DNA from: Pristiophorus japonicus
Lineage: Eukaryota
DNA length: 64,000 bases
Assembly (NCBI RefSeq): GCF_044704955.1
Contig: NC_091994.1
Span: forward strand, 48,856,001 to 48,920,000
Direction of reading: 5' to 3'
A program made the position numbers and the translations under genes. Of this stretch, positions 46,303 to 47,345 are shown piece after piece. The notes beneath the pieces were generated by a model. It had not been told where the DNA came from. It saw only the letters and a program-made list of their open reading frames with translations, and ran no database searches. How positions within the stretch are numbered: position 1 is the first letter of the stretch; the number at the start of each line of letters is the position of its first letter.

Positions 46303-47345
46303 ATGCAGATTATGACATTATGGAGCAGTACTGCCCTCTGCTGGTAGATGCTTCACCATGCAGATTATGATATTATGGAGCAGTACTGCCCTCTGCTGGT
46401 AGACTCTTCACCATGCAGATTATGACATTATAGAGAAGTACTGCCCTCTGCTGGTAGACTCTCTGCATCGTGTAATTAATGCACGGCCATCAGGGGAAGC
46501 AATGACTCTATAATCACGATTTTTAAAAAAATCTTGCATTTATAGGGCACAGCATCCTATTCTCAGCACATGTCAAGCTGCTTCACATTCAATGAATTAC
46601 ATTTGAAGTGTATTACTTAGGGAAATGCAGCAGCCAACTTACCTTCAGTTAAGTCTCACGAACTGCAATTAAATGAACGACCGGTTAAGCTGTTTTTGGT
46701 GCATTGGTTGAGGGAAGAATATTGTCCAGGATACCAGGAGAATGCCCCAGCTCTTTTTCAAAAAGTGTGATGGGATCTTTTACGACCACCTGAGGAAGTG
46801 CTCTTTAAAGTCAGTACGAAAAGGGAAGCAGGGCTTTGTGTATGTAACATCCAATTGATATTAAGCACTTCCTCAGTACAGCACTGAAGCTGGTCTCCAG
46901 TCATTTTGGTTAATCCTTGTCACTGGACCAAGACCTAGCCTGTATGGTGGTACAGGCATCTTCCACCCTTCAAGATTTAGTTCAGGAACTGGAATATTAG
47001 GTCCTTCATTGAAACACCTGTGAACTTTTTGACATGGAAGCAAGTCATCCTCGATTCGAGGGACTGCCTTTGATAATGATGATTGGAATCTAAGTCCTGG
47101 AGTGGGCCTTGAACCCAAAATGTTCCAACCCAGAGTGGAAGTTGTTCTATAAACATACCAGCTGCATGGCATAGCATCTGCCACAAGGTGACAACACTTT
47201 TCTATAAATTAATAATCTGCATGATGCCGAATTCCACCAGCAGAGGGCAGTACTGCTCTATAATGAAATAATCTGCATGATGCAGAATCTACCAGCAGAT
47301 GGCAGTACTGCATTATAATGTAATACTCTGCATGATGCAGAGTCT
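46303..47345. promoter_or_regulatory. Divergent cassette of 55-bp repeats with CTCF-type motifs (unit 2: ~60102-61145)
   Basis: Minus-strand CCAGCAGAGGGCAG at 46331-46344, 46386-46399 and 46441-46454. Plus-strand CCACAAGGTGACAA at 47181, CCAGCAGAGGGCAG at 47237-47250 and CCAGCAGATGGCAG at 47292-47305. Confidence 0.7.
46525..47155 (-). mobile_element. Deu-type SINE with a nested RTE-derived short element (~46889-47082, plus strand)
   Basis: Reverse complement cctcaggtggtcgtaaaagatccc...ttccctcaacca...tataaatgcaag; the nested piece ends gggactgcctttgataatgatgat. Confidence 0.6.

What the first reader, a model, noticed from the sequence alone, without database searches (positions are those of the whole stretch)
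46303..47345. Divergent CTCF-motif cassette that would bracket every array unit with convergent sites
Seen: three 55-bp repeats on the minus strand and three on the plus strand face away from each other across ~700 bp of SINE DNA. Five carry CCAGCAGA(G/T)GGCAG and one a weaker CCACAAGGTGAC. Most have TGCAT starting 18 nt upstream of the CC, resembling the CTCF upstream motif. Established: CCASYAGRKGGCRS is the CTCF core; divergent clusters mark domain boundaries and convergent pairs anchor cohesin loops. Inference: forward sites at 47181-47305 and reverse sites at 60130-60253 enclose ~12.8 kb, so each repeat could fold as its own insulated loop containing one tRNA gene, comparable to CTCF-bound macrosatellites such as DXZ4. 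One unit 2 site is mutated (CTGG>CTGT).
Basis: partly seen in the sequence, partly recalled or inferred. Interest (0 to 1): 0.75.

Follow-up and report, generated by a model that had tools for sequence, protein, structure and literature searches.

The report
Back-to-back CTCF minisatellite boundary in shark
A shark chromosome carries a 55-base repeat, set as two back-to-back arms, whose copies match the docking site of the genome-folding protein CTCF and have kept those letters better than the rest of the repeat, so it likely acts as a chromatin boundary dividing a cluster of protease genes; the 13-kb repeats around it are only a three-copy duplication and likely not purpose-built loops.

Summary
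The 55-bp unit holds a CTCF core plus an upstream-motif match at a plausible spacing. All 30 genome-wide pattern matches lie in 1.07 Mb of one shark chromosome: 62 monomers at four sites inside an 11-gene cathepsin L-like cluster. The monomer also occurs in runs of two other organisms; in one it may be amplified far more. The array idea fails. The 13-kb 'array' has three copies of transposon debris plus one tRNA-Leu, its first copy has no left cassette, and the same tRNA lies at 16 other places without the 55-mer. Best reading: an older two-armed CTCF boundary element, spread by segmental duplication and swept into a recent triplication. Binding and insulation are untested. Tandem CTCF motifs are common in this genome (1,125 exact pairs), which limits the surprise.

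The parts
46303..46462 (-). Left arm: three 55-bp monomers, each with a CTCF core (first C at 46454, 46399, 46344); two have CTGCAT at -19/-18
   Evidence: 21.1 bits each on a recalled CTCF matrix
46463..46585 (.). Unique ancestral spacer, first part; holds a lone CTCF-like site at 46484-46502 (+), weak here (11.6 bits) but 19.2-19.6 bits in two paralogous cassettes
46586..47130 (.). SINE fragments inserted into the spacer after the cassette formed; the empty site survives at C18:49,742,11x
   Evidence: high summed depth over parts of it in other runs
47131..47166 (.). Unique ancestral spacer, second part
   Evidence: spacer bases 1-36 match at 83%
47157..47345 (+). Right arm: one degenerate monomer (47181, 14.6 bits), two strong ones (47237, 47292; 20.5-20.7 bits) and a fourth cut just before its core by a SINE
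47346..47600 (-). SINE with an RTE-like 3' tail (label recalled); the triplication junctions fall inside copies of it
46291..46302 (-). Remnant tail of a CR1 insertion that split the left arm; the other half of that arm is inferred to be cluster A at C18:48,676,440-48,676,650
   Evidence: the CR1 label is recalled from its tail and RT peptide
42161..46293 (+). Broken Harbinger-type DNA transposon (DDE_Tnp_4 transposase) inserted into that tail
   Evidence: family name recalled
60102..61144 (.). Second copy of the cassette (unit 2), 98.8% identical; one core has CC>AC (60143) and the weak site has decayed to 8.5 bits
40009..40091 (-). tRNA-Leu(TAA) of unit 1, a passenger of the triplication
53827..53909 (-). 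tRNA-Leu(TAA) of unit 2
34142..47494 (+). Triplication unit 1 (no cassette on its left)
47495..61293 (+). Triplication unit 2
61294..64000 (+). Start of triplication unit 3, the last one; it ends near C18:48,930,800

Best explanation
This is a shark minisatellite of 55-bp units, each matching a two-part CTCF site and set as two back-to-back arms, that likely binds CTCF and would act as a two-way barrier to cohesin loop extrusion, dividing a cathepsin L-like gene cluster into sub-domains. Shown: the motif match, the divergent layout, confinement to one 1.07-Mb region, slower change of motif columns, and presence of the monomer in two other organisms. Inferred history: one cassette (arm, ~180-bp spacer, arm) took SINE and CR1 insertions and was copied by tandem and inverted duplications to four sites. 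One inverted copy received a ~225-kb block with an orphan IgNAR locus inside the CR1 that split its arm. A likely unequal crossover between two SINE copies then triplicated 13.5 kb, cassette included. Inferred function: the loops that matter would be the long convergent spans (545 kb with three genes and a 200-kb satellite; 219 kb with two genes); the three close cassettes would act together as one thick boundary. Binding and insulation are untested.
For: Motif: 36 of 47 sites of 18 bits or more, and 31 of 33 of 20 bits or more, in 1.255 Mb are 55-mers. The upstream match CTGCA at -19..-15 is one base further out than in the IL3 insulator oligo (my reading of PMC12885311), and PMC3368268 reports two spacings one base apart. 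Lamprey CTCF binds the same two-part motif as mammals, and sharks have 11-finger CTCF. Selection, on 44 distinct of 62 monomers: high-information core columns evolve at 0.55x the rest (LRT p 0.019), upstream motif 0.35x (p 0.004), both 0.48x (p 0.0008); low-information core columns 0.85x (p 0.42). Column permutation for core plus upstream gives p 0.003-0.016 in five variants and lower in a sixth that favours the result. The 48 changes in the 19-bp site are milder than three nulls (p 0.0004-0.015). Mean score is 17.2 bits against 9.0 and 12.0 in re-rooted neutral simulations (0 of 2000 runs; p 0.003). A linker-only profile found no full-length monomers with destroyed cores beyond those included. 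Layout: the sites fall between groups of 4, 3, 2 and 2 of the 11 cathepsin L-like genes. Skate TAD boundaries show divergent CTCF sites and a median TAD of 800 kb. Other organisms: 4 of 4 runs of organism B and the 1 run of organism C hold the monomer; in C, contigs bridge arm to spacer and SINE.
Against: No occupancy or contact data. The matrix is recalled. The core alone is borderline on the full set by column permutation (p 0.04-0.10), and information content does not correlate significantly with change across the 19 columns (p 0.27). 1 of 109 other placements of the motif mask ties the true one. 9 of 48 changes cost more than 5 bits, and 13 of 62 monomers score under 15 bits. Gene conversion among monomers violates the tree model. 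The unique spacer is no better conserved than the SINE beside it between sites B and C (93.4% vs 92.5%). No 55-mer lies at the outer edges of the cluster, so the element subdivides it and does not frame it. Tandem CTCF cores are common here: 1,125 exact pairs genome-wide against 17 for the reversed control. The divergent layout was not seen in one piece in any other organism.
Confidence: 0.58

Rival explanations
1. CTCF binds, but the arrays are mostly incidental: one good site was multiplied by slippage and duplication, selection needs only a few copies or acted in the past, and no gene depends on the partition.
For: 13 of 62 monomers are under 15 bits. Arms were repeatedly cut by retroelements. 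The triplicated cassettes drift like their flanks. Tandem cores are common genome-wide.
Against: Both motif halves are slower than the linker while the degenerate core columns are not. Changes favour tolerated bases. The monomer persists in two other organisms.
Confidence: 0.22
2. One reading: each ~13-kb unit folds as its own insulated loop around a tRNA gene, as a DXZ4-like CTCF macrosatellite.
For: Units 2 and 3 are flanked by convergent arms 12.8 and 12.5 kb apart, each with one intact-looking tRNA-Leu, so short loops are geometrically possible.
Against: Three units only; unit 1 is unbracketed; the junctions lie in SINE homology; the cassette is older and occurs at three sites without this tRNA; 16 of 19 exact tRNA copies are elsewhere without the 55-mer.
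Confidence: 0.07
3. The arrays mainly act as barriers against heterochromatin from the 200-kb 35-bp satellite, or wall off the orphan IgNAR block from cathepsin enhancers, and do not otherwise regulate the cathepsin genes.
For: Site C lies about 21 kb from the satellite's right end, and sites B and C face each other across it. The IgNAR block lies between arm halves A and B. Gamma satellites have been proposed as CTCF barriers (preprint passages).
Against: Site B is 325 kb from the satellite, with three genes between. Site D and the spacer empty site show that the cassette predates these neighbours. Other IgNAR and IgH loci have no 55-mer.
Confidence: 0.08
4. The clustered sites serve as CTCF/CTCFL-dependent promoters or enhancers, for example in testis, and not as boundaries.
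For: Clustered CTCF sites become start sites with BORIS in mammals (PMC10832218 passages), and shark CTCFL is testis-biased.
Against: The arms are CpG-poor (1 CpG in 345 bases), and the nearest cathepsin first exon is about 39 kb from site B.
Confidence: 0.05

Closest known systems
DXPas34 minisatellite at mouse Tsix (PMC3149622, passages)
   Same: Short tandem monomers (30-34 bp) each described as holding a CTCF site; lineage-restricted; a conserved motif inside variable monomers.
   Different: Here the unit is 55 bp and CpG-poor, has an upstream-motif match, forms two divergent arms, is not at a known promoter and recurs at four sites of one gene cluster.
Divergent CTCF clusters at TAD boundaries (PMC7422557 abstract; PMC11828424 and PMC10115646 passages)
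   Same: Back-to-back orientation; several strong sites, which in models and insertion tests add insulation; the rule holds in a cartilaginous fish.
   Different: The sites here are copies of one repeat unit at 55-bp spacing, tighter than the 180 bp modelled; occupancy is untested.
DXZ4 and ICCE macrosatellites (PMC3218863 abstract; PMC6125249 passages)
   Same: Tandem DNA with CTCF motifs conserved above their background; ICCE has motifs on both strands per unit.
   Different: Those are long arrays of 3-5 kb units (about ten for ICCE) tied to the inactive X. The 13-kb repeat here has three copies of transposon debris, and the conserved thing is the 55-mer, not the big unit.
Tandem CTCF arrays in the Pcdh and Igh clusters (PMC7087399 abstract)
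   Same: Arrays of oriented sites inside a multigene cluster, which could balance promoter choice.
   Different: Those sites sit at each promoter or gene segment; here they sit between groups of genes and no shared enhancer is known.

Membership tests
Two-part (core + upstream) vertebrate CTCF site | Strong match to the core motif | tested here: met
   49 of 62 monomers at 15 bits or more and 31 at 20 or more, on a recalled matrix with a maximum of 26
Two-part (core + upstream) vertebrate CTCF site | Upstream motif at one of two preferred spacings | tested here: inconclusive
   CTGCA matches the first five bases of CTGCAGTTTC and is conserved (0.35x); the later bases differ; -18 as the long spacing is inferred; no upstream matrix was available
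Two-part (core + upstream) vertebrate CTCF site | Motif positions under purifying selection | tested here: met
   core alone borderline
Two-part (core + upstream) vertebrate CTCF site | Bound by CTCF in vivo | not testable with these tools
   no run with a recorded ChIP or ATAC library was listed
TAD-boundary CTCF cluster | Divergent orientation with convergent partners at domain scale | tested here: met
   back-to-back arms; convergent spans of 545 kb and 219 kb
TAD-boundary CTCF cluster | Insulation in contact maps | not testable with these tools
   no Hi-C data available
DXZ4-like CTCF macrosatellite | Long uninterrupted array of multi-kb units | tested here: not met
   three units
DXZ4-like CTCF macrosatellite | Array organisation conserved across species | not tested
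   only the cassette was laid on other organisms' contigs
CTCF-carrying transposable element | Dispersed copies with element ends | tested here: not met
   30 of 30 pattern matches and 26 of 26 DNA matches lie in one region; no likeness to the dispersed LTR beyond the core in 5 of 5 copies compared by blastn
Ig-locus boundary element | Present at other Ig loci | tested here: not met
   other IgNAR and IgH loci lie on other contigs, where the pattern has no match

The most novel reading that the evidence does not exclude
A selected, self-amplifying boundary repeat: sharks tune insulation inside an expanding protease gene cluster by the copy number of a 55-bp two-part CTCF unit, from about 60 copies here to possibly thousands in organism C (252 contigs laid against 14 for this species; summed depth up to 87,919 against about 35 on contigs over the spacer). 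That would be a pure CTCF satellite of the order of 100 kb, and an orphan antibody locus would sit walled off inside one split arm.
Probability: 0.2. Interest if true: 0.72.

Novelty: new variant of a known kind. Interest (0 to 1): 0.42.

Why it matters
If bound, this is a natural series of boundary elements that differ only in copy number, orientation and decay, with a traceable history of duplication and insertion. It would let one test how site number and very tight spacing set insulation, and whether boundaries duplicate along with genes to let paralogs diverge in expression. The selection signal sets it apart from CTCF-like repeats that are mere chance amplifications. The possible large expansion in another species is the part a specialist would find surprising, but it rests on contig depths that the tool says are not copy numbers.

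Tried and rejected
A full self-BLAST of the region timed out and was replaced by k-mer masking and megablast. The first neutral simulation (end) was rooted on a long branch, gave a meaninglessly low score and was discarded; re-rooted it. Origin of the 55-mer from the dispersed LTR with two CTCF cores: linker likeness is weak (p 0.013 for one of 6 linkers, a lower mean score over all 6) and the flanks do not match in 5 of 5 copies, so it is left open. A general Ig-cluster insulator was rejected. An ncRNA in the cassette: Rfam found only the two tRNAs in the window. ORFs over the cassette: no Pfam match for 2 of 2. Gene search: 150 of about 4,100 ORFs were scanned against Pfam, chosen by clustering and composition, so small genes in the region may be missed. 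No RNA holder listed. Runs X1-X4 may be the window's own source and are not counted as support. The small organism-B runs have no recorded library type; their depths fit low-coverage genomic data, so no enrichment is claimed. Few core differences in organism C (at most 1.3% of depth at the four listed core places) were not used as evidence, because a few deep contigs dominate. One paper sought for the upstream-motif spacing was not held. PMC11641339 gave no passages for my terms, and PMC12227049 does not mention cathepsin or CTCF in its main text. Eight literature searches listed no paper on this element by title or abstract start; supplements were not read and could hold shark CTCF peak lists.

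Full report
Observation. The window is G000:C18:48,856,001-48,920,000 of a 5.9-Gb genome; its VNAR genes mark it as a shark or relative. The cassette is as described: three minus-strand 55-mers at 46303-46462 and plus-strand copies at about 47157-47345, 702 bases apart. 5 of 6 cores are CCAGCAGA(G/T)GGCAG; TGCAT starts at -18 in 4 of 6.

The big repeat. It has three units, 98.6-98.8% identical, and ends after the third cassette. Unit 1 begins inside a SINE copy that is 88% like the SINE right of the cassette, so unequal crossover between SINEs is the likely cause (inference). Each unit holds CR1 and RTE fragments, a broken Harbinger-type transposon, one tRNA-Leu(TAA) and decayed tRNA-like pieces (family names recalled). 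Only units 2 and 3 are bracketed by convergent arms. The same tRNA occurs exactly at 19 places; 16 are off C18 and 9 are on C23, the contig with most Ig constant exons. No 55-mer was found at any of them. The per-unit loop model therefore has geometry on its side and little else.

Where the 55-mer lives. 30 of 30 pattern matches and 26 of 26 DNA matches lie in C18:48.676-49.742 Mb. In 1.635 Mb fetched around it, a profile found 59 monomers, and 3 degenerate ones were added by eye. They form four sites: A (48.676, four minus), B (48.902-48.931, three divergent cassettes plus three plus), C (49.476-49.485, divergent) and D (49.704-49.742, several divergent). The region holds 11 cathepsin L-like genes from 48.34 to 49.91 Mb, split 4 / 3 / 2 / 2 by the sites. 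It also holds two VNAR genes head to head, one with constant and membrane exons, and a 200-kb 35-bp satellite. Only 150 of about 4,100 ORFs were scanned, so the gene list may be incomplete.

History (inferred from alignments). The copy at 49.742 Mb has an unbroken ~180-bp spacer; at B and C about 545 bases of SINEs sit in it. A CR1 split one arm. At C both ends of that CR1 lie 7.4 kb apart; between A and B the same two ends lie about 225 kb apart, with the IgNAR block and the triplication between them. The stretch 48.628-48.939 Mb is an inverted paralog, about 90-96% identical in blocks, of 49.531-49.462 Mb apart from that insert. The cassette is thus older than the triplication, and on this reading older than the IgNAR insertion.

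Selection test. Of 62 monomers 44 are distinct; non-homologous ends were masked in 6 rows. High-information core columns change at 0.55x the rate of the 31 non-motif columns, the upstream CTGCA at 0.35x, both at 0.48x (LRT p 0.019, 0.004, 0.0008), and the degenerate core columns at 0.85x (p 0.42). Column permutation, which does not assume equal rates, gives p 0.003-0.016 for both motifs in five variants, including a tree built from non-motif columns only and a tree-free count; the core alone gives 0.03-0.10 in those variants. The 48 changes in the 19-bp site are milder than chance (p 0.0004-0.015), and re-rooted neutral simulations score far lower (the mis-rooted run was discarded). Against: 9 of 48 changes cost over 5 bits, 13 of 62 copies are under 15 bits, one other mask placement of 110 ties the true one, information content does not track change significantly (p 0.27), gene conversion breaks the tree model, and the matrix is recalled. 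A linker-only profile gave no sign that seeding on the core had hidden decayed copies.

Other organisms. Nine runs in three studies hold the arm; four may be the window's own source. 4 of 4 runs of organism B (one study) hold the monomer, one 393-base contig with about seven in tandem. The one run of organism C has contigs that bridge arm, spacer and SINE, and one over the start of the right arm; none spans both arms. In C, 252 contigs lie on the monomer, with summed depth up to 87,919 against 34-35 for the contigs over the spacer. The tool warns that this is no copy number, so a large expansion is a hint only.

Background. Exact pairs of CTCF cores 18-45 bases apart occur 1,125 times in this genome against 17 for the reversed control; most of the first 100 listed belong to one dispersed element, which has ~290-bp direct repeats 1.5-3.1 kb apart in 4 of 5 copies fetched. 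Tandem CTCF motifs are therefore not rare here. Earlier scan notes report several one-way CTCF minisatellites in sharks, some without a selection signal (unchecked leads).

Mechanism. CTCF binding is likely, since lamprey and mammals share the two-part motif (PMC5504073 and PMC3368268, passages) and a 33/34-bp site fits in a 55-bp unit. Divergent clusters mark boundaries in human and skate (PMC7422557 abstract; PMC10115646 passages), more sites give stronger predicted insulation (PMC11828424 passages), and the upstream motif was needed for enhancer blocking at IL3 (PMC12885311 passages). I therefore read the cassette as a two-way extrusion barrier that subdivides the cathepsin cluster (0.58), with the three close copies acting as one thick boundary. 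Rivals: bound but incidental (0.22), barrier to the satellite or the IgNAR block (0.08), per-unit tRNA loops (0.07), CTCFL-type promoter (0.05).

Comparison and verdict. It works like DXPas34 in build (PMC3149622 passages) and like a TAD-boundary cluster in layout. It is not a DXZ4-type macrosatellite (PMC3218863 abstract, PMC6125249 passages), not a mobile element and not a general Ig insulator. Eight searches listed no description of it; supplements were not read. New variant of a known kind; interest 0.42.

Noticed in passing
L187-L191 (C1, C2) and genome-wide: A dispersed LTR-like element carries two CTCF cores 59 bp apart in each ~290-bp terminal repeat; it makes up most of the first 100 of 1,125 tandem-core matches. 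A candidate retroelement-driven spread of CTCF sites in sharks.
   Followed up: partly
L060:8130-9040, L061:5469-5837, L033:129-608 and 7847-8272 (C18:48,828,000-48,844,300): Orphan IgNAR locus off the main Ig contig. The V runs straight into a D-type recombination signal, so V and D look joined in the germline; only the last two constant exons are present, and about 11 kb of the C2090 copy between J and these exons has no counterpart.
   Followed up: partly
L036:2200-3500 (C18:48,682,200-48,683,500): Second VNAR on the minus strand with unjoined V and D signals, cut off before any J or constant exon; the two V genes are an inverted duplication.
   Followed up: partly
C18:48.34-49.91 Mb: Eleven cathepsin L-like genes in 1.6 Mb, with more matches at 43.16-43.21 and 51.70 Mb; two appear to have a frame break in an exon.
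   Followed up: partly
L090-L110 (C18:49,256,000-49,459,000): A 200-kb satellite of a 35-bp unit that contains a CCCTAA telomere-like hexamer, with one CR1 inside.
   Followed up: partly
window 26422 (+) and 26803-27144 (-): A lone strong CTCF site (19.9 bits) beside an RNF4-like reading frame with SUMO-binding motifs, probably a retrocopy.
   Followed up: partly
window 31006-31477 and L055:3711-4085: Two broken rhodopsin-family GPCR genes.
   Followed up: no
window 38650-38720, 40790-40875, 41100-41175, 41960-42050: Decayed tRNA-like sequences around the tRNA-Leu, one a second Leu-like copy; with the C23 copies of this tRNA they suggest that the 225-kb block came from the Ig chromosome.
   Followed up: partly
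run X9 laid on window 46340-46425: Organism C shows 252 contigs and very high summed depth on the monomer, a hint of a large tandem expansion.
   Followed up: partly
L138 and L135-L137 (C18:49,808,000-49,834,000): Nested inverted duplications (6.0 kb at 98%, 1.6 kb at 92%) with a divergent pair of lone CTCF-like sites at 49,808,629 and 49,833,199.
   Followed up: no
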